From Naegleria gruberi (taxonomy: Eukaryota), in the NCBI GenBank assembly GCA_000004985.1, contig GG738862.1: a DNA stretch of 64,000 nucleotides. One strand, 5' to 3'. The position numbers and the translations under genes are program-made. This document shows, piece after piece, positions 11,001 to 63,322 of this stretch (positions within the stretch are counted from its first letter, which is position 1; every line of letters starts with the position of its first letter). The notes beneath the pieces were generated by a model, which was given only the letters and a program-made list of their open reading frames with translations, was not told the origin of the DNA and searched no databases.

Positions 11001-14000
11001 TTAACCCATCCATTGGCTACCTTTTCCCATTTTGCATATGGATCAGTGTATCCAGACCAATAGAACTCAGCAAATATATTCAGTGCAATAGATGGTAATC
11101 CAATATATTTTTCAATTAAACAAGCAGTTTGGTAATAGCGTCTCAATAGGAAAACTTTGAGAGTGTTTTTAGGAAATGTGAATTGTTTGCTCAACACAGT
11201 GTTGTCATGAATTCTAGAAACACATTTACACCAAATTTCTACGTTTGTGTGAATAGCTAATTGAGGTTTTAGTACTGAAGGTTCCAAATTGAATGTAAGA
11301 ACTGCACAACAATTAATGTCAATCAGATTTTGTCTAATTTTGGCTATTTCTAGAGGTGGAGAATCAGTCATTGTAACAATAAGCGTTTCAATGTCTTTGG
11401 ACCACTTCAATATCAAGTTTCTGATTTTGGTCAAAAATTCAATGTACTTGTCAATAATTGATTGAGTAATATGAATATTGATAACCCTCAGAGCAGCAAC
11501 TATTAAAACTAGTACAACTTGGTATGATTTCCAGTTTTCCTTATACTTTTCCAATATAGATTCGAGCAATTCCAAAAGTTTTGAGCAAAACATTGAATTT
11601 TGTAATGGCTCATTAACTTCTCTGTACCACACATCAGAATCGTTTGGGCAATTTTGAAGCATGGATTGAAGCAGTAGAACAGTAACATCTGGCCTCTGAA
11701 TGGAAAGTTTTTCATTGGCCAAACATCTCACTATATTGTGCCACTGTAGTCTAAATCCTGCCCGTAGTGAACCATATTCTACAAACTCGGCCAAACTTAG
11801 ATTTGGATGACAGAGTGCTTGGTTGGCTATTACTTGATTTTGAGAGTGATCGAAACCACTAATAGCCCATTCCAGATTGGCATATTCAGGTGATTCAATT
11901 TTAAAGGTAAAATTACTTTCCTTCATTGATGAATGAGTCATTGTGTATGTGTGGTCGTTACCAACTGTTGCCACTAGGTCACATCCATTTGGTTTTAAAA
12001 AGCTATCCTCTGAACTCTGTACATGCTGCCGTGAGTAGTGAGTGTCAGAAAATCCTTTCACAGTACTACCAATAGTTGAGCAAGGTGGACGTCCAGATGT
12101 GAAATTCTCAAGGTAGCCTTGTTCTCTCCAAGTGCTTGGAATTTTATCTGTTTTCTGAACTCGGCATTGAAGCTGAGCCATACAGAAGAATGCATCTCTA
12201 TAATTCATATAATAATTCGGAATTAATAATTCAAAAACAATTGCATATTGTTCCACATATCCTGAAGGTAAAAAATCTTCAAAAATTGAAACATAAGTAT
12301 TGTCCAAACTTCTTTTCAATGAGCATTTGGAGCAATATTTGGAATGCCTTGTATAGCCATGAACATTAATGAAATATTCACATTCCATATTATTGTATCT
12401 GTTATAGTTTCTTTGATAATCATTCTTTCCTCTCCTTACTTCTTCAAGCTTTTGTTTTTTTCTTTCTTCATTCTCTTTTAGAATTTGATCCAATGTTTGT
12501 CTCATTGTCTTGTCGTGTCTCACAAAAAGGACACAATAGGAGTTAGCACTGAGTTTGTTTGTCAAAAAATCACATGGGCGTTTGGTTGTCTTATCGAAAC
12601 GTGTGAAATATTGTTCCAATTCGAGAGCAAATTTCATATCACTCGGAGAATCGAGTAATAAATATTTAAATGTAGATACATCCACTCCTGTTGAATATTC
12701 TTCTAACAGTTTGGAGCATGAAATGGCTATAATGTGCATAGCTTTCAAGAAGCCAAATAATGTCAGTATGAATCTGCTCTTTCCTATTGGATCGTTTTCA
12801 TAGAATTTCGAACCTAAATTGTAATAGGCATCCATTTTCTTATATACTGTATCAGAGAATGATTTTCCCTTCTTACTTTCATCAATGATTGTGAATAGCT
12901 CGTCTCTAACCCATGATTCATACTCCATTAATTGTCTTGTTGTGTAAATGTTATCATGTTCTTCCTTAGGAAGTGATGAATTCAAAAGACTGATTTCCCT
13001 TTGTTCAAAAAGGGTTTTGTTGTCCTTAATCTTTTGCAGAGAGTTACTTAAATTTTGAGAGCAAGAATCGGTATTCTTTGGAAAATTAGTGTTAAATGTA
13101 TCATTCTTTTTGATTTCCTGAATTGTTACATCCATTCTTTTTTGGATGAATTCCTTTGTGTCTCTAGTTGTAAATAATGCTGATGACTTGGATACGTGAA
13201 GCATATCCTTTAACTTTTGATTATTCACCTCTTTGCTTAAGGTACTTTTAAGGTTTTCTAACTTGGTCGCTCTCAATGAAATTTTGATTATCATTTGCAT
13301 TAGATAATCATTACTCATATTAATATACGTTCTCGCTTTTTTGCATAAATAGCTCATAAAATCCAGCATGAAAAGTTTGTAAAGAAACTTCCCCTGAATA
13401 GGTCCATATATTTTGTTGAATTTGTAATGCAGTGATGCTTTCAGGGAAATCCAGAAAGGAGATCTTCTTGTGCCATCCTGTTTAGGCCTCACAAAACTTC
13501 TCACTTTCTTTTTAATATTATTAGCTACAATATTAGTAGGACCACCAGAGAGTAGTGAAAGCATCCATTCTGTTATTAAAATTGGAGAAGAAACTTCTCT
13601 ATCTTCCGAAACAACTGTTCCTTTCCTCTTTGTTTTTGCTGAACTCATTTCCTGACTTTCAGTCAAATAAGTTAATTGATTTAAAAATGATTGACTTTCT
13701 AATACTGGAATATTATCATCCAGTACTGAAACTGATAACTCGGGATAAGTCATGCAACAAATGTCACATTTATAAATATTTGCATTCTTTGGATGACAAG
13801 TAAATGCTGACGCAATATACTTTGGTGTACTATCACTCGAATATTCGAACATTAACAAACAATTATTTCCAGTTAAATAGAACGAAATGCAATCATTACT
13901 TTCAGTCAGGTAAGATGTAATTGTTTTTCCCTTAGGAATGTCAATATCATTCAAATTAGATTGCACTGCAGCAATATTTGCAAAATATTTATCCAACCAC

Positions 14001-14299
14001 TTTAAGGAAATACCAGATAGTAAATTATCCGAATGTTCCTTTCTAAATTCCATCAAATGGTGCAAAACTTCCATATTTTCATCCAATCCACTTTGTTTTA
14101 TCGTGTAAAACACATCGGAATACATTCTAAACATTGACTCTGATGCCGTCTTACTCCTCTGTGATGACGATAACGTACCAGAAGCCTTTGTTGGCTGATT
14201 ATTGTTTGCATTATTTGCCGTTGTGTTAGTATTTGCTGTTGTTGAAGTTTGTTGCGAAGAAGAATTCGCTGATGGAACAAAAACCATTTTTTTTTTCAA
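5072..14299 (-). CDS. Giant 3075-aa single-exon protein with a P-loop-like GEGKTS motif (possibly the DUF3638/DUF3645-type large eukaryotic protein family)
   Basis: Uninterrupted 9.2-kb ORF. It has an N/T/S-rich N-terminus and a Walker-A-like MGEGKTSVIIPMLVLAFN near aa 1870, followed by hydrophobic strand-like segments. The family assignment is from memory of the GEGKTS context only. Confidence 0.8.
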   Translation of the reverse strand: MKKKMVFVPSANSSSQQTSTTANTNTTANNANNNQPTKASGTLSSSQRSKTASESMFRMYSDVFYTIKQSGLDENMEVLHHLMEFRKEHSDNLLSGISLKWLDKYFANIAAVQSNLNDIDIPKGKTITSYLTESNDCISFYLTGNNCLLMFEYSSDSTPKYIASAFTCHPKNANIYKCDICCMTYPELSVSVLDDNIPVLESQSFLNQLTYLTESQEMSSAKTKRKGTVVSEDREVSSPILITEWMLSLLSGGPTNIVANNIKKKVRSFVRPKQDGTRRSPFWISLKASLHYKFNKIYGPIQGKFLYKLFMLDFMSYLCKKARTYINMSNDYLMQMIIKISLRATKLENLKSTLSKEVNNQKLKDMLHVSKSSALFTTRDTKEFIQKRMDVTIQEIKKNDTFNTNFPKNTDSCSQNLSNSLQKIKDNKTLFEQREISLLNSSLPKEEHDNIYTTRQLMEYESWVRDELFTIIDESKKGKSFSDTVYKKMDAYYNLGSKFYENDPIGKSRFILTLFGFLKAMHIIAISCSKLLEEYSTGVDVSTFKYLLLDSPSDMKFALELEQYFTRFDKTTKRPCDFLTNKLSANSYCVLFVRHDKTMRQTLDQILKENEERKKQKLEEVRRGKNDYQRNYNRYNNMECEYFINVHGYTRHSKYCSKCSLKRSLDNTYVSIFEDFLPSGYVEQYAIVFELLIPNYYMNYRDAFFCMAQLQCRVQKTDKIPSTWREQGYLENFTSGRPPCSTIGSTVKGFSDTHYSRQHVQSSEDSFLKPNGCDLVATVGNDHTYTMTHSSMKESNFTFKIESPEYANLEWAISGFDHSQNQVIANQALCHPNLSLAEFVEYGSLRAGFRLQWHNIVRCLANEKLSIQRPDVTVLLLQSMLQNCPNDSDVWYREVNEPLQNSMFCSKLLELLESILEKYKENWKSYQVVLVLIVAALRVINIHITQSIIDKYIEFLTKIRNLILKWSKDIETLIVTMTDSPPLEIAKIRQNLIDINCCAVLTFNLEPSVLKPQLAIHTNVEIWCKCVSRIHDNTVLSKQFTFPKNTLKVFLLRRYYQTACLIEKYIGLPSIALNIFAEFYWSGYTDPYAKWEKVANGWVKAALLTDSGFTAIAFNIVRGTFLVNGNPIGRLPDPITADAKYKRVFGNFVFDVQQATRPDAFVTSYDIDGCQLEFRKSMQFILKHGSETSILLSHKIFEYDLPAQFVENYSHWYDVTTNCVLFRPISFFSPKFKSSIAYKLDVTEKKLKEVGTERVLMNYFGETYTEVLKSISRIELKHNIHIFANNDEVLVELPRLGLHFELVNNSYLRSKEFSMIVCDSFYCGTLIGLSNAIMLKDENPNSSKKIVLVPNGEISTEKFKHHHLTRIDMTKSIDTPYFTYSVNEYMWQLEANDSLSSWLFLALLHGITSSVIVDPFTKLTGYESALKILKSARCWPMRPLSKLETSLLEAISSISPDRSFHPPKMKVNEKITWPKTNLSSLCLLDAYKLIVDSIVKKSEETIFLDGESGSSVKKSDEEDPLFLARRYYKAYLNYYNPIVRLRISSQKDVNYVETIKISSMTSYVACKYLASISKNNFQKISAVELINSVSSFNPEKKVENFLYDWKNIDLEDDFLTLYEAAKTQTPADFKVFISYLGYVFPEKKKMLACFMIINLFANSFRNQHSPLIFSSVDDLECTDFDEDDVINLLKAANSRLTFDDEDDHETFNNDIRTCLRFAEIAFNKEQLMEKNKFGRLNFIDKSEAVDHINNYLSTLYNRERVQKFLQGIKSVLQNMMNNAKGDITIVNITMENLQPNETNQTFDIQNFTKVQEDGNKLVFGLADVPEMAKYIFEKGDISPYCEKDVIKTLEHDVQLFSHDSHDPLYNEYILDLEGSYLTANNPNQVTSAQLPNISVILELKEKIWKALECKLSNFSDTAKSAIAECGISNRLCPYLLFQDLISDTEQYCGCKDLIGALAVLTTLEQRYNRLKLMNNDPNKKVQFDRELENSGHVNWSPKKFPQWLLLEIELDLMIRPRQYEVANHMLSSSTNMVLQFNMGEGKTSVIIPMLVLAFNEAQIPRLTVLKQLLQTNYTYLSFKLGGILNRKVIYLPFSRDLKITATDLKTIRSVLEVMEKERSILITVPEYRLSFELKGIEKAIAKESIAHDYLRLQDYFEKHCRDILDESDEILHVRYQLIYTVGEQKDLDMGNLRWILPQKIMRIVRKHAESLFNKLGASHVEFFTRGDSHTFPYFRVLDKTSYNQLVDLIVDDILEGRASEIFIPYKLNDRENIKKILTAETISQTELDILSTMSNDILKSEILLMRGIFAFGLLYHSLNKRWRVNYGVNPNIKRLVAVPYRAKDCPSDRAEFGHPDIAILLTLLSYYYSGLTNEQLDVVFQFLQRIESPDVEYEKWVYEMKNIPESIKHYKSINLEDFIQKTQVLYPALRNNMAVIDFFLNRAVFSRECKQFDRKISASAWNLCKESKFPTCGFSGTKAFLLPITIKENELPSLRGTTGELLKILLSKENEEYHVVKQAEITNFISELNANNQRVLIDVGALMLEMSNMNLCKYWLNSVTEQVADAAVFFNTQDQLVVLDRNGLIIPFEISPYKNKLERCLIYLDDIHTRGTDLKFPTGMKAAVTLGNGLTFERLCQACMRMRLLGKGHSVAFWASQEVDRFINDNFSQQLTIQERILKWSIHNRVQMENDHYLQWSTSGLLFYSKKIAKTEYDAKLKMDEYAEQCTENELFKISDFYGQERYEQYLLSIFEKRALHISKLFSIDISPSLELIRANINKRAHSKTIFSQILNEEQERELENELEEQRIVERPQKCDPAATVIDDTLELFMKKGILQEEYDVSIQPLKARPLSESLEETLLASPINWNHNIYATDNYLKTVSNASKNSPFFKPVTWLAYSEYSQTIIILSPEEANHYIQKLDKFSPTRILMFCSRTSPTSRIMIDEPAWSVPNNNFEIADKVLLNLLTDIHIFAGSLYFANQLEQDEFCKFLGIAPKPYAPNSKEEELFQQSIIDEFGLISRESLEGLPLLYKCRIFNRDAVKYLRTIINIRDKSCLFELSHLYNVLINNQKIVFK

Positions 14300-15190: not shown

Positions 15191-18100
15191 TTACAATTCC
15201 ACAATTTCAATTTCATCACTCTTATCTTTGAGTTGAATGACTGGATAAATATCATTCAAGAGTTGAGGATCATTGCTCACTGAGAGTTTCTTGAGAAGAA
15301 TGAAAGGTTTCTTATTATTGACCGAAACCCAAATTGTTCCATTCTTATCTAGATTCATTTCAACAGTTGTTCCACTTCTTTCATTTACAACCACTTCTCT
15401 CACTCCAGATTCTGGCATTTTAATTCCCTCCTGTCCACAGAAAAATCCATCATTCAAATAATAATACCATCCACATGTTTCATGATTTGAAAAATTGTAT
15501 TTCAATTTGCTTTTTGGTGCAAAGCCAAACATGATGCTTGAACTGATAGTGGAGAGGACTTTGATTTTGTATCTGAAAGTTTTGGTTAATACAACTGTGC
15601 AATTCCATTCACTTTGTGACATGCCAATCTTTTTGGCACGTTTTGGATTGGTGAGTTGAGCTGTGAGACTCTTTGCTTCTGAATCGAATGTAATATCCAC
15701 AATGGCTTGATCAAAGTTTGATCCACAAATGTTAATATTCGAACCAGCAAAATCATGTCCATTTAAATTACATTTAGATAAATTGGCACCAAACATATTA
15801 GAGTTGGTAATGAGAGTTTGTGAGAGGTTACATTGAGAGAAATCTGCCTCTGTAAGATTACAATTGGTAAAGACAGCTCCTTGTAAATTGGCATGTTTGA
15901 ATACTGCTCTGGAAAGGTCGAGTTTTGTAAACTGAAATCCTTCCAAATTACAATCAGTAAAGTCCACTCCTGTGACACTTAATGAACTTTGCAACACATC
16001 CGTATCAAAGAAGGCAGAACAGAGTTTGGCTCCGCTGAGACTGAGTCCATCATTGAGGATTGACTTGATATTACATCCAAAAAGGATAGCCTTATTGAGC
16101 GAGCTGTTTCTCAATAGAGCTGAATCTAAATTACAATAGGTAAAGTTTGCTCCCTCAAAATTACAATTGGATAGATTAGTTTTGGAAAGGTTGCAATTGG
16201 ACAAGTTGGCCAAACTGAAATCAGAGCCAAAGAAATCTAAGGATGACAAGTCGAAACCAATCAATGAAGATCTTGACCAATTGGTGGATCTTAGACTTGT
16301 AGATTTTCTCAATAATCTTTCATTAACCATAGAACCACTAAATTGTGAGCTACTCAAATCATATCCAGTACTCGTAGATGCTACTTGTGTCAAGTCACAC
16401 AAATTAAAGTTTACATTTCTACATATTGCCTTTTCAATGTTACAACCAAATAATTTAGAGATTTTGAGTGTAACTCCATTCAAAGAGGCTCCAACGAACT
16501 TGGAATTACTCAAATCACATCCAATCATTTCACAATTACTGAGAGTGCATCCACTGAAATCACAATACTTGAAATTGCAATTGTGGAATTTGGCCTTGGA
16601 AATTTGAATTCCAGATAAATCACAATCAACAATTTCAGCATCCATAATAGTGATATTACTCAAATCCAATTGTTTGAGATCCTTCTTGGTGAGAATGAGT
16701 GGTTTCTTTTGATATTTGGAAGTACTCAATAAGAAGGTGAAATCATTTTGAGAGAGAACAGTTGAATCAGTTGTCAATTCAGCAGTTTCCTCATCAATTT
16801 CATTGACAATTTCATCCTTGAGAGATGCTTTCATCTTGTTCAATCCGAAATATTCCGCAACATGACTCAATCTTTCCTTTAAATATTCACAATCAATACT
16901 AATATTACCATATCTGAGCCAATGCAATATATATTTGAACAATGCAGGATCACAATCAATAAAGTAAGAACCATCCTCACATTTTCTCAATGGATATTCA
17001 CCATCAAACATTTTAGCCAACACTGAATTCTTTTCCAAACTCGTATCAGTAAGTGTTTGAAGAGTTGCCTTCATCTTTTTACCTCCAACGTTCAAAGTAA
17101 TTGGTTGATTAGATTTTGGAAGCTTGACACGATATTTAGCTGTCTGATCCCATTTTTTAGTTTCACTCTCCAACTTTTCTTTAAGAGTTTCAATTTTTTC
17201 CTGTAACATTTTACAATCATTTTCCAATTTGGCTTGCAAATCTGCCTTATCCGCAATTTCCTTCTCAAACTTGTCCTTCTTTGTGAGATATTCCTTTTCC
17301 CAATCCTGTTCAGTTTTAATCTTTGATTGGAGACGTGAGAGAGATCTAGATTTGGAAGGACTAAATGCTGGATTATAGGCATTCGATGCTGGACTTGGCA
17401 TTTCCTTCTCAGCATCCAAAGCAATTGCCTCTTTCACCAATGCAGCAATTGGTGAATTCTTAATCGATGCACGATAAGCAAGAGCTACTGAATTAGCAGA
17501 TGGAGTTGTCTTTCCATGTTGATAGAGAGGATTGATGAATTCAATTTCTTCCTCATCTTGATCTTGTGTTGGTTGTTCTTGTTGGAAATTGAGAGAAACT
17601 TGACTTGCTTCTTGAGCAAAGAAATTCAAGTTGACAGCACTTGCGAATGGATTTGCTTTCTTGACACGGACAACTTTGACTTTTTTGACATTTGGTGCTG
17701 ATGATGATTGTTGAAGATTTGTTGATGGATTTGATGATGATGGTGATGGTGATGAATTTTGATTATTATTATTCTTAATGATGAAAAATAATTATTATTC
17801 GAAAGTTGGTGAATGTAAATTTTACATACATTGATAAAGACACTTTGACTTCTATAAATTGTATTAGATGACAAGGCTCCCATAGAATTAAAATCCGTAA
17901 TTACATGTTGTGAATCCGCATCCAATAAAGTAGACGAAACTTGTGGAGATTCCAAAGAACAAGGAGAAACCACAGAAGGTGATTCGTCCACAAATGATGA
18001 TACTGGCGAAGGTTGTATATCCAAACTTCCACGTAATTCTTCAGCTTCATCAGGAAAATCCGAAATTTGTGGCTTTCGTGTAGATTTCGAATTCTTTGGA

Positions 18101-34948: not shown

Positions 34949-36253
34949 TTAGTAATGTTTCTTGTGATGTTTCTTTGGTTTCTTGTGGTGTCTCTTTCCT
35001 CTCTTCTTTTCCTTCTTTTCATTCTTATCACATTCTTCCTTCTTCTTGCAAAATTCAGAATCTTTGTGATAAACCTTGAAAATGTCAACCATACCATCCA
35101 TGTGATGGTTATCAATGTGACAATGGAATAACCAGTTACCAGTATTGTCAACTTCAACATCCAAAGCTCTGGCAATACCTGGAGCTACGAAAACTGTATC
35201 TACTCTTCTGATACCATCTTCCAATCCAACAATACCATGCCAGTGAACTGGATGCAAATCAAAGTTACCAATAGTTCCTGCATACCATCTGACTCTTTCA
35301 CCTTCACACATAGAGAATCCACCAATATTGTTAATACTCATGTATCCATTGATTGAATCCTTTTGATTACTGGCAGTTAATGAACCAGCTTTGAATGCCT
35401 TGTATTGAGCTTCTGTCAATGTACCAGTTGCATTCAAATACTTTTGAATGTTTTGATCCAAGTAGAAACTGGTTTGTTCGTTGAAAATCTTTGGAAGAAC
35501 AAAGAATTCTCTATCAACATCCTTTGGAGAACCATCCTTTCTAGCATAACCTTTTTTAGTAATAACAATGAAACCAATCAAACCAGCTTGAGTTTCTGCT
35601 GGTTCATCCAAAGCATGTGAGTGATACATCCAAGGAATTGAACTCAATGGACTGTCTTCAAGTGGACCTGCACGATCAGGAACATTGAAAATATATTCGA
35701 AACTAGCACCAGCAGGTACAGCATCACCAGTTCCAGGACTAGCAAATGACATATCCTTATCATTATCTACGTAGGCAGCTCCTTCTGATAACTTATCATA
35801 TTGAACACCATGAGGATGGATACCAGCTGGGAATTCCAACTTGTTTCTAAACAAAACTCTAATTTGTTCACCAACTTCTCCTCTAATAATTGGACCAACA
35901 ATTCCCAAATGTGGAGCTTGTTCCTTCTTTGTGGTAAAAGTCTTGTCAGTATACTCGATATACTTTGCCTTCAAATATTTAAGACCAATGGTTGTGGCAG
36001 ATGGACGATGATTGACTCCAAATTCCATTCCCATGAACATATCCTTTCCATAAGGTCCATAATTCCACTCAACTCTTTCAGCTTGAATGTAATAACGTCT
36101 AATACGAGTTGGCTTGAAAGGTTTCTTTGAAGGAATATTGTTTTCTGCTGGAAGATTTGGTTTTGGCAATGAATGGTCTTCACCATTATGTGCCAAAACA
36201 AGTGCAGCAAAGAAGAGAGAGATTACCAAGAGACAAGTAAGTGTCTTGTGCAT
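34949..36253 (-). CDS. Secreted two-domain multicopper oxidase, ceruloplasmin/hephaestin-like (434 aa) with a His/Lys-rich tail
   Basis: Signal peptide MHKTLTCLLVISLFFAALVLA. RRYYIQAERVEWNYGP parallels ceruloplasmin REYYIGIIETTWDYAS. Copper ligands HPHG, HSH, HPVHWHG and HCHIDNHHMDGM. C-terminal KRHHKKPKKHHKKHY. Confidence 0.85.
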   Translation of the reverse strand: MHKTLTCLLVISLFFAALVLAHNGEDHSLPKPNLPAENNIPSKKPFKPTRIRRYYIQAERVEWNYGPYGKDMFMGMEFGVNHRPSATTIGLKYLKAKYIEYTDKTFTTKKEQAPHLGIVGPIIRGEVGEQIRVLFRNKLEFPAGIHPHGVQYDKLSEGAAYVDNDKDMSFASPGTGDAVPAGASFEYIFNVPDRAGPLEDSPLSSIPWMYHSHALDEPAETQAGLIGFIVITKKGYARKDGSPKDVDREFFVLPKIFNEQTSFYLDQNIQKYLNATGTLTEAQYKAFKAGSLTASNQKDSINGYMSINNIGGFSMCEGERVRWYAGTIGNFDLHPVHWHGIVGLEDGIRRVDTVFVAPGIARALDVEVDNTGNWLFHCHIDNHHMDGMVDIFKVYHKDSEFCKKKEECDKNEKKEKKRGKRHHKKPKKHHKKHY

Positions 36254-37345: not shown

Positions 37346-39563
37346 ATGAAGATTCCCCTGCCGACACAAAGTTATGAACAACAAGAACATTTAGTTAGTA
37401 CTGACGAGGAAGAGGAAGATGATTTTTCATCATCTCTTTCGTATTGTTCCTCTTCGTATGTGATGGACCAAATTATGATGAAAAGGAAGAATTCGTTTAG
37501 TGGTGGTAGTTATGGAGCAGCACATCAACAATTGTATGGTAATGAAGAGGAGGAAAGGAATCATGTCATTTGGTGTGATGTGTGTAAACAGGAAGGATTT
37601 GAAGAAGCTGCCACTCATTACTGTTCAACATGTTTCAAGGAAAATCAGAAAGATAAGAGTAATCGAGTGATTGTTGTTCAACAAAATGATGAAAGGGAGA
37701 GTTTGGAAGAAGAGGAAGACGAATCGAATGTAACAATATGTCACTATTGTCAATATCATGCCAATAGACATAATAGGAGAGATCCACTGCATCAAATAGT
37801 GTCCATTAGACAGGAAAGGATATTTGCATCATCGAGCTTGTTACGTTCTGGTTCATTCATGTCGAGTGCTTCATCTTTTGATTCGAACATGTCCAATTCA
37901 TCACCAATTCCTTTTTTCACAACTGGTAGTACATCAACTGGACCACTGTTCAATTATGGTTGTAATGGTAATAACAGCAGTAGTAATAACATGTTGGCGA
38001 GTAGTAATATTGTCAGATATTGTTTTAAACATGAAGAGGCCATTCCACTTAATACCTACTGCAGAACTTGTGAATTGGTAATTTGTTCTCAGTGTGCCTT
38101 GTCCAAAGCACATAAAGGACACTTGATTGAGTTAATCAAGGATGTAGAAAATAGTGAAAGAATGCAATTGGGTGAACATGTTAAGGTTCTTAAACAATCA
38201 TTCGAAGAATGGGAAGAGGAGTTCAGTGTCCATGATGAAGACTTGGAGGAAGAACTGACACTAATTGATGAACGAGAAGAATCACTCACATATCAGATTA
38301 ATTTAGCATTTGATGAAATGAAGGAATGTCTAGAAAAGAGAAGAAATGTTCTCATAGAACAAGTGGAACAATCATCTCATGAAAACAAACAATCTGTTCA
38401 TAACATTCTCAAAATGAAGAAGGAATCCAAAGAGTTACTTGGAGAGTTTGACAATTTGGAAGAGATGAGTGGATTTGATGTAATTGATAAAAAGTTGAAT
38501 AGACTCAATCTTATCATTGTACTATACGAAAAGATGCAAAAAGAATTCAAGACGAGAAAACTCTCTGACCTTCATAGAATATCTCTGGACAAGTTTGCAA
38601 GTAGGAAGAATATTATTCAACATCACATTGATGAGCTAGGTCAAGTTGTCAAGAAGACAAATGATGATTCTGGTCCATCATCGACTTCTGTACCTATCAA
38701 TTTCAAACATATAGAAACTATTGGATCAGCTAGCAATTCAAATAATAAGCATGTGCAGTTTAGCTTTCCATCCGATGTTAAAATTTCTCATCAACATGCA
38801 TGTATTGTTGTAGCAGATTTTGGCAACAAGAAGATTCGTGTTTTGGATTTGATAACTAGGCAGTTCAAGTACGATATTGATACTGCGTCAGCTCCAAGAA
38901 ACATTTCAATAGATCACACAGATGACGACTCTATTATTGTATCATGTGCAGATCACTGTGTTTACAAGTATTCATTACTTAATCAGGGAAAGTCAATAGT
39001 TTGGAGGAGCGGATCGCCAAATGAGAGTGGAAATTCTCAACATCTTTTCAAATATCCAAGAGCAAGTATTGTGGATATAGATGGCAATGTATACGTGTGT
39101 GATCATGGTAATCACCGAATCAAGGTATTAACATCTAGCAATGGCCAATTTGTGAAAATTATTGGAATAGATCAAAATTCAATTTAAACGGCCTTGGGGT
39201 GTTTGTATTGATAAGGATGGAAATTTAGTTATTAGTGAGAAGAAGAATAATAGAATACAAAGAATATCAAAGGAAGGAGATATTTCACTCTTTATGTTAG
39301 GAAAGAAAGGATCATCTCAATACGAATTTAACAAACCGAGAGGTATATTAATTGACAATCACACTGAGCATATGTTTATTTGCGATGGAGCTAATCATAG
39401 AATACAGGTATTTTCCAAAGCAGGAAAATTAATCAAAACCTTTGGTTCTGAAGGTTCCAAATCAAGCCAATTATTTCAACCTCATAGTTTATGTTTTGAT
39501 TCAGTGAGTGGTCAATTATTTGTAGCGGATTGTGGAAATCACCGAGTACAGATATTCCAATAA
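37346..39563 (+). CDS. B-box zinc finger, coiled coil and NHL-repeat protein (TRIM-NHL-like, no RING seen), with an apparent 1-nt frameshift at about 39170-39185
   Basis: B-box: CFKHEEAIPLNTYCRTCELVICSQCALSKAHKGHLI (C-x2-H...C-x2-C...C-x2-C-x5-H-x2-H), plus an upstream C/H cluster. A ~200-aa E/K-rich coiled coil. NHL repeats HACIVVADFGNKKIRVLDL and VYVCDHGNHRIKVL continue after an a-run in another frame as RPWGVCIDKDGNLVISEKKNNRIQ, MFICDGANHRIQVF and LFVADCGNHRVQIFQ (ORF 39294-39563). Confidence 0.75.
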
Positions 39564-44492: not shown

Positions 44493-47477
44493 ATGACGTT
44501 TTTAACATCACAAAAAAACATGTCTCTGCATCACCTAATCTTGGTTGCTTTGCTCATCTCAGCACAATTTGTTTGCTTTTCACAACAGCAAGCAACCATG
44601 GCGCCAAGTGTCAGCCACATGCTTCTTGCTGGCGGAAACACACCTTTCGGCTATTATGGAAATACGAAAGGTCTCACTCCTTCTTCCATCTTGTGTGGTC
44701 AAGATGATTTCATCTACAGTGTGGACACAAGCGTTGCTGGTATCAAAATAGCCAAATTACTACCTAGCGGCGTTATTTCCTCTTCTTTTGGCACTGACCA
44801 TAGCTCAGCCACAGGAAGAACACTGGGAATGGCTTCGTATCCTGATGGCTCTGCTGCTGGAAAGTATTTTGTCTATGAATTGGATCCTGTAACCAAAATC
44901 CTAACCAAGAATTCAGTGAGTTTGAATGCTAATGGACCTGTTGGAACTATTCCAATGGCTGCAGAGGTGATAAGTGATCCAAGTGGATTGGCTGTCACAT
45001 CAAATGGTGATTTACTATTTTCAGATAGTAAGGCGAATGTTATTCGAAGAATTAACATGACAGCACCTGGATTGGATGGAAATTACACAACAACAATTGT
45101 TGCTGGAGTTGTTGGAGCATCTGGATATGGTGGAGAATCTGTTGTGGCCACAGGAGCAATTTTATCTTCACCAACAGGAATAACTGTATTTGGAAATGCT
45201 TTTTATTTTGCTGAAACTTCTCTTAATATTATTCGAAAGGTTGACATGCAAACTGGATTATTGACAACTGTTGCTGGAATACAAGGTCAAAGTGGTGATA
45301 GTGGAGAGGGTTATTTGGCCACATCAGCATTTCTGAATGGTCCTCAATCAGTTGCCTTTAATAGCAATGGTGATATGTTCATTTCTGACTCAAAAAATAA
45401 CAAAATCAAAAAGGTGTTTTTCAATAATGGAACTATTATCACAATTGCTGGAACTGGAAGTGCTAATTTTACTGGAGATGGATCAAATGCCAAGTTTGCA
45501 ACTTTGAATTTGCCAACATTTATTTCAGTTTCCAATTCAACTGGTGACATTTATATTATTGATTCTCAAAATTACAGAATTAGAAAGATTACTGCAAGTA
45601 CCAATGTTATTTCCACATTTCTAGGCAATGGACTTTCGAGAAATTACGGTGAAAATATTTCAGCTGGTGCAGCTTCTTTCAATTCCCCAGTTGGTTTCAC
45701 ATTTTCTTTGGCTTATCCTAATAATGTGATTTATGTTGCTGATACAGGAAATCATAGAATTAGATCATTCTCTCAATTCTATTCTGGCAGAAATATTGTA
45801 ACTGTGGCAGGTTTACCGAGACCTGGACTTGGAGGTGAGAATTTGCCTGCCTTATCAAGTTCTTTCAATTTTCCATCTAATTTGGTGTTTCATCCAATTT
45901 CAGGAGATTTACTAATAGTCGATACCCAAAATCATAGAATTAGAAGTATGAGCAAGAGTACATCCTTCGTTAAAACAATTGCTGGAACTGGAATAGCAGG
46001 TTACAATGGAGAGGGTATGCTTTCGAATATGACCAAAATGAACTCACCATCTGGCATTGCAGTCCTAAGTACTGGTGAGATTATCTTTGCAGATACATTC
46101 AACAATTTGGTAAGAATGATTAATTTGCAAGGTATCGTTTCAATATTTAGTTCTAATGTTTCTGCACCTGTTGGTATTGCTGTCAATTCAAAAGATGAAA
46201 TTTATATTGGTGATAGTGGTAATCAAAGAGTATTACGCTGTACCAAACAAGGAGTTTGTGTTACATTTGCTGGTACAAAGGGAGTTAAGGGTTATTATCC
46301 AAGCAGTTCCAAAGTTGCTGTTCCAGTTTCTCAAGTTTTATTCACTCAACCAACTTACATTGCACCTAATAATGCAGGAGATGTTTATGTGGTGGATAGT
46401 GGAAATGGAAGAATTGTTAAAATTGCAAGAGATGGAAAAGCTGCTAATGTTTTGAATAATTTGGTCAATCCAGGAAATATTGCATTCAATGAATATGAAC
46501 AAAGTCCAATCTTTATCAGTTCTGATATAGTTCATGAGTTAAAGTCCACATGTAACTCCAATTATGTGCTCTCCATTTATGATTATGAATGTAATTTGAT
46601 AACATGTTCTGGAGTTGCCTTGACAAACAGTTCTGTATGCTCCTCGCACGGAGTTTGTGCCTCAATGGACACATGTATCTGCAACACGGATGATACCTAT
46701 TTTGGAAAGAATTGTGAGTTTAAACTATGTAATGGAGCTCAAATTTCATCCACTCAACCATGTGTAGCTCAACAATCACCATCCACAAAGGAAATCAAAG
46801 TTGAAACAATTTTAATCTCTTCATTGAATGCAAAGAATGTTACTTTTGACAAGTTTGAAACCATTCAAGTAACCTTCCCTTCTTCAATCGTTTCTCAATT
46901 GAATAGCACAGGTTCAGTTTCAGGCAATCTCAACATTGACCTCGTCAGTTCAGTTGTAAATCAAACTTTGGACAATTCACTCAATAGCTTATCAGAAAAC
47001 AATACAATTTTCCTAGTGAGCTCCATTGTGACAATTTCACTATTTGACAGAGACACTGGAAAGGAAATTTCAGTCAAGCAACTCAGTGAACCAATCAATA
47101 TTCAAATGAAATCCATCTCTGTTCCGAATTCCCTCCTTGAAAACCGTGAATTCTCCTTTGTGTGCATGTACCTAGACATTTCCTCCAACACTTGGAAAAC
47201 CGATGGTGTTGAAACCATTATTCAAAACTTACAAAACACCACAGAAACATTGACCTTCTCCACCCTATGCAGAACCACACACTTGACCAGTTTCGCAGTC
47301 ATTGATCCAACCTATAAAAAAGCCTCAAAATCTGATTCAAACAATAGCAATCTCCTCGATCTTGGCACCATCATTGGAATTGCTGTAGGAGGTGGTGCAG
47401 GTCTCTTAATTGTTTGCACCATGATGGTTCTCGCCATTGTTGTATTGGTTGTTTGCTGTGTGAAAAAGAGAAAGTAA
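44493..47477 (+). CDS. Type I membrane protein with an NHL-repeat beta-propeller ectodomain, EGF-like Cys module(s) and a single TM helix (994 aa), no kinase
   Basis: Signal peptide (MSLHHLILVALLISAQFVCFS). Twelve or more NHL-type repeats (...VADTGNHRIRSF..., ...IVDTQNHRIRSM..., ...YIGDSGNQRVLR...). EGF-like CSSHGVCASMDTCICNTDDTYFGKNCEFKLC. C-terminal TM IIGIAVGGGAGLLIVCTMMVLAIVVLVVCC followed by KKRK and the stop. Confidence 0.8.
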   Translation: MTFLTSQKNMSLHHLILVALLISAQFVCFSQQQATMAPSVSHMLLAGGNTPFGYYGNTKGLTPSSILCGQDDFIYSVDTSVAGIKIAKLLPSGVISSSFGTDHSSATGRTLGMASYPDGSAAGKYFVYELDPVTKILTKNSVSLNANGPVGTIPMAAEVISDPSGLAVTSNGDLLFSDSKANVIRRINMTAPGLDGNYTTTIVAGVVGASGYGGESVVATGAILSSPTGITVFGNAFYFAETSLNIIRKVDMQTGLLTTVAGIQGQSGDSGEGYLATSAFLNGPQSVAFNSNGDMFISDSKNNKIKKVFFNNGTIITIAGTGSANFTGDGSNAKFATLNLPTFISVSNSTGDIYIIDSQNYRIRKITASTNVISTFLGNGLSRNYGENISAGAASFNSPVGFTFSLAYPNNVIYVADTGNHRIRSFSQFYSGRNIVTVAGLPRPGLGGENLPALSSSFNFPSNLVFHPISGDLLIVDTQNHRIRSMSKSTSFVKTIAGTGIAGYNGEGMLSNMTKMNSPSGIAVLSTGEIIFADTFNNLVRMINLQGIVSIFSSNVSAPVGIAVNSKDEIYIGDSGNQRVLRCTKQGVCVTFAGTKGVKGYYPSSSKVAVPVSQVLFTQPTYIAPNNAGDVYVVDSGNGRIVKIARDGKAANVLNNLVNPGNIAFNEYEQSPIFISSDIVHELKSTCNSNYVLSIYDYECNLITCSGVALTNSSVCSSHGVCASMDTCICNTDDTYFGKNCEFKLCNGAQISSTQPCVAQQSPSTKEIKVETILISSLNAKNVTFDKFETIQVTFPSSIVSQLNSTGSVSGNLNIDLVSSVVNQTLDNSLNSLSENNTIFLVSSIVTISLFDRDTGKEISVKQLSEPINIQMKSISVPNSLLENREFSFVCMYLDISSNTWKTDGVETIIQNLQNTTETLTFSTLCRTTHLTSFAVIDPTYKKASKSDSNNSNLLDLGTIIGIAVGGGAGLLIVCTMMVLAIVVLVVCCVKKRK

Positions 47478-50879: not shown

Positions 50880-51243
50880 TATTGTGTGCTATAGTTACAT
50901 TTAGTAAATTCTGGAGGTAAAAACATGATCAGCATTCACAAGTTTTGATACGTGATCAGAAATTATATTTACCACCAATATCTAAATCTGTGGACCATTT
51001 AAAACCATATTTATCATTCCAACTGATATCATTTTCACAATCTTTTTCTCGGGAATTCAAGTAATTTCCTTCCACAACAAGACGAAACAAAAATCAATTG
51101 GAATTACATCATTTTTTAATATTTAAATTTTAGATTAATTTTCAAAAATTACGTAATTGGATGGTGTGTTACTTTGTTTCATCCGAAACTTTAAGTGGAA
51201 CACAACTTGGCACACTAAAGTCATCCATCATGTGAAAAGAAAA

Positions 51244-54200
51244 ATGCGCAGACTGCTCGTTTTGCTGAGTTTATTCTTGTTTATTCAGCTTGGTTATTCG
51301 AAACTGGTTGAGTATAGATGGGAACCTATCAGTGGTGTGGCCAAATTTTCAACATCTTTTGCCAATGCATACCAATCCGAAAATCAGCCAGAAATTATAT
51401 ATTTTCAGGAATCTTCTTTTCGTATATTTAAATATAATCAAACTTCTGGTGATCGAAAATTATTGCTTGGTTGTTATACTAGTAGTATTTGTATGCCCGA
51501 GAATTCGGTTTCTACTGGTGATATCAATAGTGCAACTACCATTGATCTCACCATTACTGCTTTTCATGTGGACGAAACTTCATACGAAACTATTTATGTT
51601 GCTACCCACAAGCAGATCTACAAATTTCAAAATGGAAATTTAATTCTTCTTTCCAAGCAGTTAGGAGCTTCCACTACCATTCAGGAAGGTTCAGCACTTT
51701 CGAATACCACTTTCACCAAAATTGGTTCAATTTCTAGGGATCCTATTGGAAACTTGTATATTTGTGAGGAATCAAACCTATATAGAGTTGATTTAAACGG
51801 AATTATTAATTTTATGAGTTTGCGAGGTGGATTTACGCTAACCAAGAAAGATGGCTTTTCAAACGAAACAATTTTTTCAACTTATATTTCGAATATAAGA
51901 TATCACAAGGGATACTTGTATGGATGTGATTTATTCTCAATATTCAAGATTAATTTACAAACATGGTGGATGACTGTCATTCAAGGGAGACAATTTGATG
52001 GAAATACCAATGATGGACCTGCTTTGGATGCTAAAGTGAATTTTGTGTATGGATTTGCAGTTTCTCCTCTTGATGATTCAATTTATCTTACAAATTTAGG
52101 ATATTGGAAAGTGATTAATCAAACTACTGGGAATATTTCGACCATTTTGTTGTTCGATTCATCCATTGCATCACCAACTTTTTTCTCACCAAATCATATT
52201 TTAAATGGACAAACTATAATGAAAACTGATTTGTCCCTTAAACAAGTTTATCCAATTTTAACTATTAATGGAGCTATTAATGATGGTACTAATGTGCAAA
52301 ATAGAGTGTTTGATTCAATAGCTGCTATTGCGTTCAATCAATCAAGTAATGAACTATTAATTGCTGATTCTAATTTTGGATTTAATTTGAAGAAAGTGGA
52401 TTTGACAACTGGAACTGTGTCTACCATTACATTAATAGACAAATTTTCAAATGTTTCATGTTGGAATTCTTCTGAAGAGACTAATGAGAGTTTTATCCGT
52501 TCAAAATTCATTCCCAATGCATTACAACTCAGAAATTCTGATTTATACGTTTCATCAACTCAGATGATTCAAAAAATAGATGTATCTAAAGGAAATGGTT
52601 GTTTCTATGCTGGTTCCATTACTGGTGATAGATTAAGAAAGGAAGGTCCTCCGTCCTCAATAATTTTGAAAAATCCAACAGGAATATTCTGTCTCGATTC
52701 ATTTTCTACGATTTATATTGCAGATACTGATAATCATAGAATTCTCAAATATATCTCAAAAGAAATGGTAGAGGTTATTGCTGGTATTGGAGTTCAGGGA
52801 TTTTCTGGTGATGGAGGTTTGGCAATTAATGCTCAATTAGACAAACCTCATTCAGCTCATTTTGATAAGATTTCTGGGAATATTTACATTGCTGACAGTG
52901 GAAACCACAGAATTAGAATGATATTTCCTAATGGAACAATAACCACAATTGTTGGAAGTGGTACTAATGGATTTAATGGAGATGGATTGAATCCATTAGA
53001 AACTCATCTCAACTTACCAAAATATGTATTCTATGATTCTGAAATTTTATACATTTCAGATTCTTTCAATCATAGAGTCAGATCTTTTTTCAATGGAACT
53101 ATAAGTACAGTATTAGGAAATGGAATTACTGGATCTAGACTTGTTCCCAATAATCCTAAAGAAACTCAATTGAATTCACCATTTGGATTGTTTGTTTCAA
53201 ATTATAATCTCTTTGTAGCAGGTAAGTTTCTCTTTCCTACTAGTTAGGATACATTAATTTATATTAGATACTTATAATCACAGAATATTGTGTGTTTATT
53301 ATGATTCCAAGGTTGAAATCATTGCTGGAACAGGTGAATCAGGTAAGTTTCTAATACATTAATGAATATTGATGAGAATAGGATATAATGGTGATGGTAT
53401 GGTTGCAACACAGGCAAAACTCTTCCTACCAAGTATGGTATCTGTAGTTGACCAATCTATTATTTATATTGCTGATACTGCTAATAACAAAATTCGTATA
53501 ATTTCTAGAGGTGTTATTTCATCCTTCTATGAAAAAATAATATCTCCAATTGGTTTATGCCCAGAAGTGTCATATTTTGCTTATACAGCAGGAAATTTAG
53601 TTTTATCAAATGGTCGAACGGAACCACTTGTAGGAGGTATTGCAGATGGATTGAATGTCTTTTATGCTAATGTAAATCCCACAAGAATTCTGTTAACTAC
53701 AGACAACAAGATGGTCATTTCGGAATCTGAAACTAATAGGATTAGAATGATTGATAATATTAAGGGAGGTATCAAGACAATTTCTGGAACAGGTAAATTT
53801 GGATTTAGTGGAGATGATAATGCTGCAAACCTTGCCATGCTAGCTTCTCCAACTGGATTAGCACAAGGAGTAGATTCCAATTTGATTTATTTTGCTGATT
53901 CAAGTAATAATAGAATCAGAGTAGTAACTGGTGCCTCAACTTTGACATCATTAATAATGACAAAAGCTGGAACAGGAGATCAATCATATTCTTTTCCTGA
54001 TTTACCGATAGATCCACTGAAGGCCAAGTTCAATACTCCAAGATTAGTGTCTAGGTTAAGCAATGGAAATATTCTGATTGGAGACACTCTCAACTATCGA
54101 ATTCAGATGATTTCGAATACTGAAAATGGCGAGAAATTACGAACCATAGTCAATGTAGCAGACGCATATGGAAGTTCAGTAATTACAGACATGGTTGTGA

Positions 54201-56010
54201 CCGAGCAAAATATAATTCTCGTCTCCACTATGGATGCAATTTACAACCTCTTGCCCCTTTGTGATAAGGGGTATCAACTTGTGAATAACAATACTGAATG
54301 CCTTCCTATTTGTTTTGGATCTCTTGGGCAATTTTCCTGTTCAGGCAGAGGCAAATGTGTAGAGCCAGATAATTGCTCATGCCTTCAGGGACTCTACACA
54401 GGAAGTCAATGTGAAATTCCAATATGTAATGGAATTGCTGCAAATGAATCAAGCGTTTGTTCTTATATGAATGGTACTTGTGGAATCAATAATCAGTGTA
54501 CATGCAAGGATGGATTTTATGGCAACATGTGTGAGAATCCAATTTGTTTCTCACAAATAGTTGGAGAATCATGCGGAGGTAGTCTCAGAGGAACTTGTAT
54601 TCATAAGGATAGATGCTCATGCAATCAACATTTTACTGGAGAGCGTTGTGAATTAAGAATGTGTTCAGGAAAAAGTGAGAATGACACTAAAGTGTGTAAT
54701 GGACATGGTAAATGTGTGGAAAATGGAAGATGTACCTGTGACGCTTTATATTCTGGTTTAGATTGTTCAGATATGAGTCAAATATATGCCTTAGGTATTA
54801 GTGCTTCTATTGTTCTATTGATATTGACTGTATTGGCTGTGGTTTCTATTATATTAGGATTAGTTGTTCATAGAAAGAATAGAAAGGAAAGAAAAATATT
54901 GGAAACTGAGCTATCTCTTGATGAGAGGTTGCTATCAACTACTGACGCATACGAAATGTCTATTTCTTCTGCTTCTAGTAATATTCATTCAACTAGTGAT
55001 GATCCTTCCTCTTTTGTTATTCCTCTCCATAAAATTGGAATGGATAAACCAATCAAGGTAAGTTTACTTTCGAATATAACAATTATTTAACAATTTTAAT
55101 ACAGAGACTGGGAGAAGGTGGAATAGGAAGTGTATTCATGTCAAAATATAATGGAATGATCGTTGCAGTTAAAGTATTTGATTTAAATAACTTGAACATT
55201 TCGGAAGAAGATTTCAAAAATGAGGCTATTCTATTAAGCAAACTTCGTCATCCTAATATTATCAATTTTTACGGAGTTTCTACATCACCAACGAAACGTT
55301 ACATAATTATGGAATGTTTGGATCAGAGTATGGAGAAGGTGATTGCCAAATTAGAGTTTAAACAATTAACTCTCTCATTGGATCAAAAATTGAAAATGAT
55401 TCTTAATATTGCTAATGGAATTGAATATTTACACAGCTTGAAACCAAGAAAAATCATCCATCGTGATCTAAAACCACAAAATATTCTATTGGATTCGAAT
55501 GGAAATTGTAAATTGTGTGATTTTGGATTGAGCAAATCCATTTCACAAGCAACTGTTTCTGCACTTACTAATCAGTTGGGTACACATTTCTACATGAGTC
55601 CAGAAATGTTTGATATTAATGCTGTTGATCCTACCTATGCTACTGCAGTTGATATTTACAGTTTCTCAATAATCATGTGGCAATTATTATTCGAAATCAA
55701 AGATCCCTACCTCTTTAAATCGTCAGAATTATTCCACAAATTGAAAACGAAATCACTTGAACAAGTCTCATCCTATCAGCTTACCAAAATGATTTGTGAA
55801 AATAATTATAGACCTTCTATTCCATTCCAATCTATCAACGAATGTACAGATTGGTGTACCGAATTTATGAAGTCAGAACTAGGAAATACTTCAACAATTT
55901 TCAAATTGGGCCAATTGATTAAAGAGTGTTGGCAAGCAGATCCAAAACTCAGACCAAGTATTGAACAAGTTGTAGATCAATTACAATCACTTGAGAATGA
56001 GCTTGTATAA
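51244..56010 (+). CDS. Receptor protein kinase with four exons: signal peptide, NHL-repeat block, second NHL block, EGF-like repeats, TM helix and a TKL-type Ser/Thr (or dual-specificity) kinase domain
   Basis: Exon 1 51244-53221 (MRRLLVLLSLFLFIQLGYS, NHL repeats such as ADTDNHRILKY and ADSGNHRIRMIF). Intron 53222-53267 (46 nt). Exon 2 53268-53342 (DTYNHRIL...IAGTGESG). Intron 53343-53381 (39 nt). Exon 3 53382-55057 (NHL repeats, EGF-like CSGRGKCVEPDNCSCLQGLYTGSQCEIPIC..., TM LGISASIVLLILTVLAVVSIILGLVV then HRKNRKERK). Intron 55058-55104 (47 nt, gtaagttta...aatacag). Exon 4 55105-56010 carries the kinase subdomains LGEGGIGSVF, VAVKV, HRDLKPQNILLD, DFGLSK and SPE. All donors are GTAAGT and phases are consistent. 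Confidence 0.8.
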
Positions 56011-62934: not shown

Positions 62935-63322
62935 GGTTTGGGTTTGGGTTGGGTTTGGGTTTGGGTTTGGGTTGGGTTTGGGTTTGGGTTTGGGTTTGGG
63001 TTTGGGTTTGGGTTTGGGTTTGGGTTTGGGTTTGGGTGTTGGGTTTGGGTTTGGGTTTGGGTTTGGGTTTGGGTTTGGGTTTGGGTTTGGGTTTGGGTTT
63101 GGGTTTGGGTTTGGGTTTGGTTTGGGTTTGGGTTTGGGTTTGGGTTTGGGTTTGGGTTTGGGTTTGGGTTTGGGTTTGGGTTTGGGTTTGGGTTTGGGTT
63201 TGGGTTGGGTTTGGGTTTGGGTTTGGGTTTGGGTTTGGGTTTGGGTTTGGGTTTGGGTTTGGGTTTGGGTTTGGGTTTGGGTTTGGGTTTGGGTTTGGGT
63301 TCGGGTTTGGGTTTGGGTTTGG
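62935..63322 (+). repeat. Telomere-like hexamer array, about 64 GGGTTT units (TTTGGG in telomere convention) with occasional GGGTT or GGGTGTT variants. The G-rich strand points to the right end.
   Basis: Read directly from the sequence. The array abuts a 50-N gap at 63323-63372. Confidence 0.95.

What the first reader, a model, noticed from the sequence alone, without database searches (positions are those of the whole stretch)
37346..39563. B-box, coiled-coil and NHL protein without a RING (TRIM-NHL/BRAT-like architecture) in a non-metazoan-looking genome
The B-box, coiled coil and NHL tripartite layout is considered a metazoan hallmark (TRIM2/3/32/71, Brat, NCL-1) used in RNA regulation and ubiquitination. 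Here a clean B-box2-type Cys/His cluster, about 200 aa of heptad-rich E/K sequence and six or more NHL repeats occur in that order, with no C3HC4 RING ahead of the B-box. Either this lineage has TRIM-NHL-like genes, or the architecture arose convergently. Both are interesting.
Basis: partly seen in the sequence, partly recalled or inferred. Interest (0 to 1): 0.55.

Follow-up and report, generated by a model that had tools for sequence, protein, structure and literature searches.

The report
RING-less TRIM-NHL-like gene in Naegleria
The amoeboflagellate Naegleria gruberi, which is not an animal, carries a gene built like the fly growth regulator Brat (zinc-finger B-box, coiled coil, six-bladed NHL propeller, no RING), a layout that the TRIM evolution paper I read treats as animal-only.

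Summary
The window is Naegleria gruberi NEG-M. ORF 37346-39187 is XP_002678374.1, annotated as a 613-aa "NHL repeat" protein. It is cut short by one extra A in the run at 39171-39174. A 99%-identical environmental strain has AAA there and encodes an intact 738-aa protein.

That protein has these parts:
- a conserved N-terminal Cys5His3 finger with B-box1 spacing, not confirmed by HMM or fold search;
- a B-box2, above the Pfam cut-off;
- about 185 aa of helix whose profile matches only TRIM B-box/coiled-coil structures, TRIM3 best;
- a six-bladed NHL propeller whose nearest solved folds are TRIM71, Lin41, Thin, TRIM2 and TRIM3.

There is no RING. Homologues exist in N. fowleri (two paralogues), N. 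lovaniensis and an environmental relative.

The likely mechanism is inferred, not shown. I expect a coiled-coil dimer that presents NHL propellers as RNA- or protein-binding platforms, with no E3 ligase activity of its own.

Whether the architecture shares ancestry with animal TRIM-NHL or was assembled independently stays open, because the NHL tree is unresolved.

Verdict: a real, moderately interesting new non-animal member of a known kind.

The parts
37346..39563 (+). Whole single-exon gene. It encodes 738 aa once the extra A is removed. NCBI annotates it as a truncated 613-aa protein, XP_002678374.1.
37574..37792 (+). N-terminal binuclear Cys5His3 finger, aa 77-149 (C77, C80, C93, C96, C135, H138, H142, H149). 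The spacing is that of a B-box1. It is split by a disordered acidic insert of about 31 aa (aa 99-129).
38012..38131 (+). B-box2 zinc finger, aa 223-262 (C-x2-H-x9-C-x2-C-x4-C-x2-C-x5-H-x2-H).
   Evidence: Pfam PF00643 scores 34.4-34.7 bits against a cut-off of 24.1. All ligands are invariant.
38105..38665 (+). TRIM-type coiled-coil region, aa 254-440: a long helix at 254-368 plus helices at 376-400 and 407-440.
   Evidence: Profile hits go only to TRIM B-box/coiled-coil structures, with TRIM3 best at 2e-10. hhalign gives 98.8% over 137 columns.
38696..39560 (+). Six-bladed NHL beta-propeller, aa 451-738 of the repaired protein.
   Evidence: Pfam NHL scores 92 bits. AF2 gives 24 strands. The Foldseek top 16 hits are TRIM71, Lin41, Thin, TRIM2 and TRIM3, with TM (target) 0.60-0.84.
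39171..39174 (+). A4 run holding one extra A compared with the intact allele. It shifts the frame at the start of NHL blade 4 and creates the stop at 39185-39187.

Best explanation
What it is. This is one Naegleria gruberi gene for a RING-less TRIM-like protein with a Brat-type layout. In order it has a B-box1-like zinc finger, a B-box2, a TRIM-type coiled coil and a six-bladed NHL propeller.

State in the reference. The reference assembly carries a one-base insertion in an A-run. That insertion splits the ORF and made NCBI annotate a 613-aa stump holding three of the six blades. A near-identical strain has the intact gene.

Conservation. The family is conserved in the genus: N. fowleri has two paralogues, and N. 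lovaniensis and an environmental relative at 48-49% identity each have one.

Mechanism, inferred by analogy to Brat, TRIM71 and TRIM2/3. The coiled coil probably forms an elongated dimer. The zinc fingers would serve assembly or partner contacts. The basic NHL propeller would be the ligand-binding platform. RNA is the most likely ligand, which would make the protein a post-transcriptional regulator. A protein ligand is nearly as likely. Without a RING the protein should have no E3 ligase activity of its own.
For: Shown here.
- Identity and organism.
- Single gene: intact allele; the ORF continues across the site in N. fowleri.
- Purifying selection between the two strains: pN/pS about 0.27, from 10 synonymous and 11 non-synonymous changes.
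- B-box2 above the Pfam cut-off in all five family proteins scanned here.
- The B-box2/coiled-coil profile matches only TRIM chains at E below 0.01. The TRIM-NHL member TRIM3 is best, at 2e-10 over 137 positions.
- hhalign against nine B-box-NHL proteins: 98.8%, E 8e-17.
- BLASTP alignments to RING/B-box/filamin/NHL proteins cover 86-99% of the query.
- NHL: PDB sequence hits TRIM71 at 2e-42, then Thin and TRIM3. Foldseek top 16 are all TRIM-NHL propellers.
- No RING.

Support for a basic binding face. The NHL domains of all four aligned homologues have pI 8.3-8.9. The loop motifs FKYPR, FKRPWG and NKPRG are conserved between N. gruberi and N. fowleri.
Against: - No experiment or expression data were available, so dimerisation and the ligand are inferred.
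- The Pfam TRIM_CC model (PF25600) did not hit.
- The N-terminal finger fails the B-box HMM, and fold searches for it are not significant.
- By sequence, the NHL domain is as similar to bacterial-type NHL arrays as to animal TRIM-NHL proteins. An NJ tree does not place it.
- If the frameshift is real in NEG-M, that strain's copy is probably non-functional.
Confidence: 0.75

Rival explanations
1. Independent assembly (convergence). The lineage fused an ancient TRIM-type B-box/coiled-coil module, such as the TRIM37-like genes reported in excavates, to an unrelated NHL propeller. On this reading the likeness to Brat and TRIM-NHL is in architecture only.
For: Marin 2012 (PMC3503706) finds only the TRIM37 subfamily outside animals, so a B-box/coiled-coil donor existed. 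NHL similarity is not specific to TRIM-NHL. The NHL tree is a star.
Against: Both modules independently score best against TRIM-NHL members among solved structures. Alignments to TRIM-NHL proteins are collinear over 86-99% of the query. The other NHL genes in the same window are much more distant, at 38-63 bits against 77-108 bits for the B-box-NHL proteins.
Confidence: 0.4
2. Ancient horizontal transfer of a Brat/TRIM-NHL-type gene from an animal, or a close relative of animals, into an ancestor of Naegleria.
For: The distribution is patchy. No relatives were found in JGI metagenome contigs. I found no description of the architecture outside animals in the papers searched.
Against: Paralogues within Naegleria are only 34-49% identical. 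Base composition matches the flanks. Nothing in the tests run here groups the family with a particular animal clade.
Confidence: 0.1
3. The NEG-M copy is a true pseudogene or null allele, not a sequencing error.
For: The extra A is in the deposited assembly, and NCBI's model ends there. NEG-M is a long-cultured laboratory strain (my own knowledge).
Against: The downstream frame stays open for 129 codons, with only two substitutions relative to the intact allele. The scaffold is draft quality nearby, with N-gaps at about 61.8-62.1 kb and 63.3 kb. No independent NEG-M data were available.
Confidence: 0.45
4. The two ORF pieces are separate genes, and/or the Cys/His cluster is a generic zinc ribbon. 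These are the first reader's own refutation criteria.
For: None beyond the raw stop codon at 39185-39187.
Against: An intact 738-aa allele exists. Orthologues read through the site. A three-blade propeller cannot close. The B-box HMM is passed in five proteins.
Confidence: 0.02

Closest known systems
Drosophila Brat / C. elegans NCL-1 (RING-less TRIM-NHL proteins)
   Same: The same domain order: B-box1(-like), B-box2, coiled coil, six-bladed NHL, and no RING. The Brat NHL is among the sequence and fold hits.
   Different: The Brat NHL scores lower than TRIM71, Thin and TRIM2/3 (68 against 104-149 bits). The Naegleria first finger is not recognised by the B-box HMM and carries a low-complexity insert. 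RNA binding is untested. The lineage is Heterolobosea, not Metazoa.
TRIM71/LIN-41, TRIM2, TRIM3, TRIM32/Thin (animal TRIM subfamily C, class VII)
   Same: They are the best sequence and structure matches for the NHL. TRIM3 is the best solved match for the B-box2/coiled-coil.
   Different: They have an N-terminal RING, which gives E3 activity. TRIM2, TRIM3 and TRIM71 also have a filamin repeat before the NHL. Neither is present here. Identity is only 21-27%.
TRIM37-like subfamily A (RING, B-box, coiled coil, MATH), the only TRIMs reported outside animals, including in excavates (Marin 2012, PMC3503706)
   Same: They show that a TRIM-type B-box/coiled-coil module predates animals and exists in excavates.
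   Different: They have a RING and a C-terminal MATH domain instead of an NHL. I could not retrieve a Naegleria TRIM37-like sequence to compare.
Bacterial and other NHL propellers (PknD sensor domain, NHL arrays, teneurin-type NHL)
   Same: The same six-bladed NHL fold. Consensus-like arrays reach 110-129 bits against the Naegleria NHL.
   Different: They have no B-box or coiled coil and are usually extracellular. The teneurin-type NHL genes in this same window are far more distant.

Membership tests
TRIM-NHL (animal TRIM subfamily C / class VII) | N-terminal C3HC4 RING finger | tested here: not met
   No RING family in the Pfam scans. No RING pattern in the 1.1 kb upstream. The start M1-K2 is conserved with N. 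fowleri. Brat and NCL-1 also lack a RING.
TRIM-NHL (animal TRIM subfamily C / class VII) | B-box2 zinc finger | tested here: met
   PF00643 scores 34.4 bits against a cut-off of 24.1. All 8 ligands are invariant.
TRIM-NHL (animal TRIM subfamily C / class VII) | B-box1 ahead of B-box2 (present in some members, such as Brat and TRIM71) | tested here: inconclusive
TRIM-NHL (animal TRIM subfamily C / class VII) | Coiled coil directly after B-box2, in register with TRIM coiled coils | tested here: met
   Profile against the PDB: TRIM3 at 2e-10 over B-box2 plus about 100 aa of coiled coil, and only TRIMs significant. hhalign gives 98.8% over 137 columns. AF2 helices. Periodicity z 7.4. The Pfam TRIM_CC model did not hit.
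TRIM-NHL (animal TRIM subfamily C / class VII) | C-terminal six-bladed NHL propeller | tested here: met
   Pfam NHL 92 bits. 24 strands at high pLDDT. TM (target) 0.84 to TRIM71.
TRIM-NHL (animal TRIM subfamily C / class VII) | Filamin/Ig repeat between coiled coil and NHL (TRIM2/3/71 subset) | tested here: not met
   There is no room for it and no Pfam hit in this protein. The N. fowleri paralogue P0107 has a 150-aa insert ending HIYQSPFKLNV, but Pfam, PDB and hhalign tests of it are not significant.
TRIM-NHL (animal TRIM subfamily C / class VII) | Phylogenetic placement inside the subfamily (common descent) | tested here: inconclusive
   In an NJ tree of NHL domains the Naegleria family is monophyletic (100%). 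Its sister group changes between bootstraps, and Naegleria+TRIM is recovered in 0% of them once NHL arrays and other eukaryotic NHLs are added.
TRIM-NHL (animal TRIM subfamily C / class VII) | Antiparallel coiled-coil dimer; RNA binding by the NHL top face | not testable with these tools
   Only indirect evidence: NHL pI 8.3-8.9 and conserved basic loop motifs.
Pfam zf-B_box (PF00643) and NHL repeat (PF01436) | Score above each family's gathering cut-off | tested here: met

The most novel reading that the evidence does not exclude
Brat/TRIM-NHL-type regulators (B-box, coiled coil, NHL) are not an animal invention. They would date to an early eukaryotic ancestor and survive in Heterolobosea. 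That would overturn the 'animal-specific subfamily C' view. It would also give a unicellular system, with its amoeba-to-flagellate differentiation, in which to study the ancestral function of the NHL propeller.
Probability: 0.3. Interest if true: 0.7.

Novelty: new member of a known kind. Interest (0 to 1): 0.5.

Why it matters
Marin's 2012 family-wide analysis (PMC3503706) lists the TRIM-NHL group as found in animals only, and the studied members (Brat, LIN-41/TRIM71, TRIM2, TRIM3, TRIM32) are all animal proteins. A conserved, paralogous family with the same collinear layout in a discoban protist means one of two things. Either the architecture is much older than animals, or it is easy to reinvent. 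Either answer bears on how this regulator class arose.

The finding also corrects three database gene models:
- N. gruberi XP_002678374.1 is truncated at the frameshift.
- N. fowleri XP_044560143.1 lacks its N-terminus.
- N. fowleri CAG4715516.1 is fused to the neighbouring KTI12 gene.

Tried and rejected
- The frameshift as an intron or a programmed +1 shift: rejected, because the near-identical strain simply has one A fewer.
- A word-index search with the B-box2/coiled-coil alone returned nothing, not even the protein itself, so it was uninformative.
- The exhaustive representative search was swamped by giant multi-NHL proteins. It yielded only P0020 and P0107 as new family members.
- The afdb50 fold library, which would have given the taxonomic spread of the architecture, was not available.
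- A metagenome scan with the B-box2/coiled-coil alignment found no relatives.
- The first NJ tree gave 100% support for Naegleria+TRIM against bacteria. That support vanished with wider sampling, so I do not use it.
- Filamin-like insert in paralogue P0107: not supported statistically.
- Synteny with the N. fowleri neighbour KTI12: absent from this window.
- Organism of the RING-less B1-B2-CC-NHL protein P0200 (Logan SRR26424591): could not be determined.
- P0221 sits in a tandem RING-B-box-NHL array next to a SID-1-type gene, so I took it to be from an animal.

Full report
**Identity and coordinates**

The window averages about 34% G+C. ORF 37346-39187 (+) is 100% identical to Naegleria gruberi NEG-M XP_002678374.1 / EFC45630.1, "NHL repeat domain-containing protein", 613 aa, on a 502-kb scaffold.

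**The frameshift**

- Translating the three frames shows the NHL reading frame moving by +1 between 39168 and 39187.
- The same 90% protein cluster holds a 738-aa member, P0007. It is encoded on an ENA metagenome contig (L001) that is 99.0% identical to the window over 5.6 kb, flanks included.
- Within the gene the two sequences differ by 21 substitutions and one indel. The window has CAAAAT at 39169-39174 where L001 has CAAAT.
- Removing one A gives ...IIGIDQIQFKRPWGVCID..., a normal start of an NHL blade.
- N. fowleri homologues also read through this point. The two pieces are one gene.
- The substitutions give pN/pS of about 0.27, from 10 synonymous and 11 non-synonymous changes. That is consistent with a gene under selection, though the counts are small.
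- I cannot tell whether the extra A is an assembly error or a real null allele in NEG-M.
- The downstream frame is open for 129 codons and nearly unchanged. The scaffold has N-gaps a few tens of kb away.

**Domain anatomy of the repaired protein**

*a. N-terminal finger, aa 77-149.*
- Eight residues are invariant across four homologues: C77, C80, C93, C96, C135, H138, H142 and H149.
- In the environmental homologue P0020 the cluster is compact: C-x2-C-x12-C-x2-C-x6-C-x2-H-x3-H-x6-H. It matches a generic B-box1 pattern that also picks out the B-box1 of RING-containing B-box-NHL proteins.
- In N. gruberi and N. fowleri a disordered low-complexity insert splits it.
- Pfam does not recognise it.
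- Foldseek gives only non-significant ZZ-domain hits.
- hhalign against four B-box1 sequences aligns only the first half, at 73%.
- I call it a B-box1-like binuclear cross-brace finger, not proven.

*b. B-box2, aa 223-262.* It scores above the Pfam cut-off here and in all four other family proteins scanned.

*c. Coiled coil, aa 254-440.*
- AlphaFold2 gives a 115-residue helix followed by two shorter ones.
- Residues 262-368 have no proline and strong 3.5-3.67-residue periodicity: z 7.4, with 0 of 2000 shuffles reaching it.
- A profile of the B-box2/coiled-coil from four homologues matches only TRIM proteins at E below 0.01 among all PDB sequences.
- The best match is TRIM3, a TRIM-NHL member, at 2e-10 over 137 positions. 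TRIM28, TRIM5, MID1/2, TRIM72, TRIM63 and PML follow.
- hhalign against nine B-box-NHL proteins from the database gives 98.8% probability and E 8e-17 over 137 columns, running about 100 residues into the coiled coil.
- The Pfam TRIM_CC model itself did not hit.

*d. NHL, aa 451-738.*
- Pfam NHL scores 92 bits.
- The model has 24 strands, which is six blades, at high confidence.
- The best PDB sequence hits are TRIM71 (2e-42), Thin, TRIM3 and TRIM2, then designed Pizza proteins, Brat, PknD and Mei-P26.
- The top 16 Foldseek hits are all TRIM-NHL propellers, with target TM-score 0.60-0.84.

*e. No RING.* None is found in the protein or upstream. The N-terminus M-K is shared with N. fowleri.

**The family**

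Homologues with B-box plus NHL are:

| Protein | Source | Length | Identity to P0007 |
|---|---|---|---|
| P0002 / P0012 (NCBI model XP_044560143.1, 821 aa, is a member of the same 90% cluster but starts inside the first finger's insert) | N. fowleri FDP41_005424 | 885-886 aa | 37% |
| P0170 | N. lovaniensis C9374_005813 | 888 aa | - |
| P0107 | N. fowleri FDP41_007119, a second paralogue | 785 aa | 34% |
| P0020 | environmental relative | 641 aa | 48-49% |

A profile of the family also retrieves RING/B-box/filamin/NHL proteins, with BLASTP alignments covering 86-99% of the query at 21-25% identity. One of these (P0221) lies in a tandem RING-B-box-NHL array next to a SID-1-type gene, so I took it to be from an animal.

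**Origin**

- By BLAST, the NHL domain is as similar to bacterial-type consensus NHL arrays (110-129 bits) as to the B-box-NHL proteins retrieved here (77-108 bits).
- It is much less similar to the three teneurin/EGF-type NHL genes in this same window (38-63 bits).
- A first NJ tree grouped Naegleria with TRIM NHLs against bacteria at 100%.
- With NHL arrays and other eukaryotic NHLs added, the Naegleria family stays monophyletic (100%) but its position is unresolved.
- Shared ancestry of the whole architecture, ancient transfer and independent fusion all remain possible.
- The B-box2/coiled-coil evidence and the collinearity lean toward shared origin.
- The literature leaves room for independent fusion. 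Marin 2012 lists TRIM-NHL subfamily C as animals-only and finds only TRIM37-like genes in other eukaryotes, including excavates (PMC3503706).

**Mechanism (inferred)**

By analogy with Brat, TRIM71 and TRIM2/3, I expect a coiled-coil dimer that displays NHL propellers as the binding surface. The NHL domains of all four aligned homologues are basic, with pI 8.3-8.9. The top-face loop motifs FKYPR, FKRPWG and NKPRG are conserved between N. gruberi and N. fowleri. This is compatible with RNA binding but does not show it. Lacking a RING, the protein should not be an E3 ligase on its own.

**Literature**

Full-text searches found no paper linking Naegleria with TRIM-NHL, B-box or NHL repeats. The proteins are in public databases with automatic domain names only.

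**Verdict**

The finding is real and correctly read. It is a new non-animal member of a known architectural kind. It is of moderate interest for the origin of TRIM-NHL regulators, and its evolutionary status is still open.

Noticed in passing
window 44493-47477, 51157-53247, 53369-55090 (+): Three further NHL-repeat ORFs lie 5-15 kb downstream. They are of the teneurin-type NHL/EGF kind with no B-box. They are only distantly related to the B-box-linked NHL (38-63 bits).
   Followed up: partly
window 62935-63322, and N runs at about 61.8-62.1 kb and 63.33-63.38 kb: A (GGTTTG)x65 tandem array with strong G/C skew sits next to assembly gaps. This shows the scaffold is draft quality in places.
   Followed up: no
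window 5072-14299 (-): A 3075-aa ORF carries DUF6606, DUF3638 and DUF3645 domains. It is a giant protein of unknown function.
   Followed up: no
window 15191-17629 (-): An 812-aa ORF combines a BTB_2 domain with long pentapeptide-repeat arrays.
   Followed up: no
window 34949-36253 (-): A multicopper-oxidase ORF with a lysine/histidine-rich C-terminal tail lies immediately upstream of the gene.
   Followed up: no
P0107 (N. fowleri FDP41_007119) aa 350-500: The paralogue has a 150-aa insert between the coiled coil and the NHL. The insert starts IDPQSCKI and ends HIYQSPFKLNV, which resembles a filamin repeat as in TRIM2/3/71. Pfam, PDB and hhalign tests were not significant.
   Followed up: partly
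database models of the family: N. fowleri XP_044560143.1 (821 aa) starts inside the insert of the N-terminal finger and so lacks its first half. CAG4715516.1 (1134 aa) appears to be fused to the neighbouring KTI12 gene, which is an inference from cluster membership and lengths. No KTI12 neighbour is present in the N. gruberi window.
   Followed up: partly
L003 (Logan SRR26424591 contig, 2053 nt): P0200 is a 623-aa RING-less B-box1/B-box2/coiled-coil/NHL protein of unknown organism. It aligns over 99% of the Naegleria query at 25% identity. It may be another non-animal case, or an animal Brat-like gene.
   Followed up: partly
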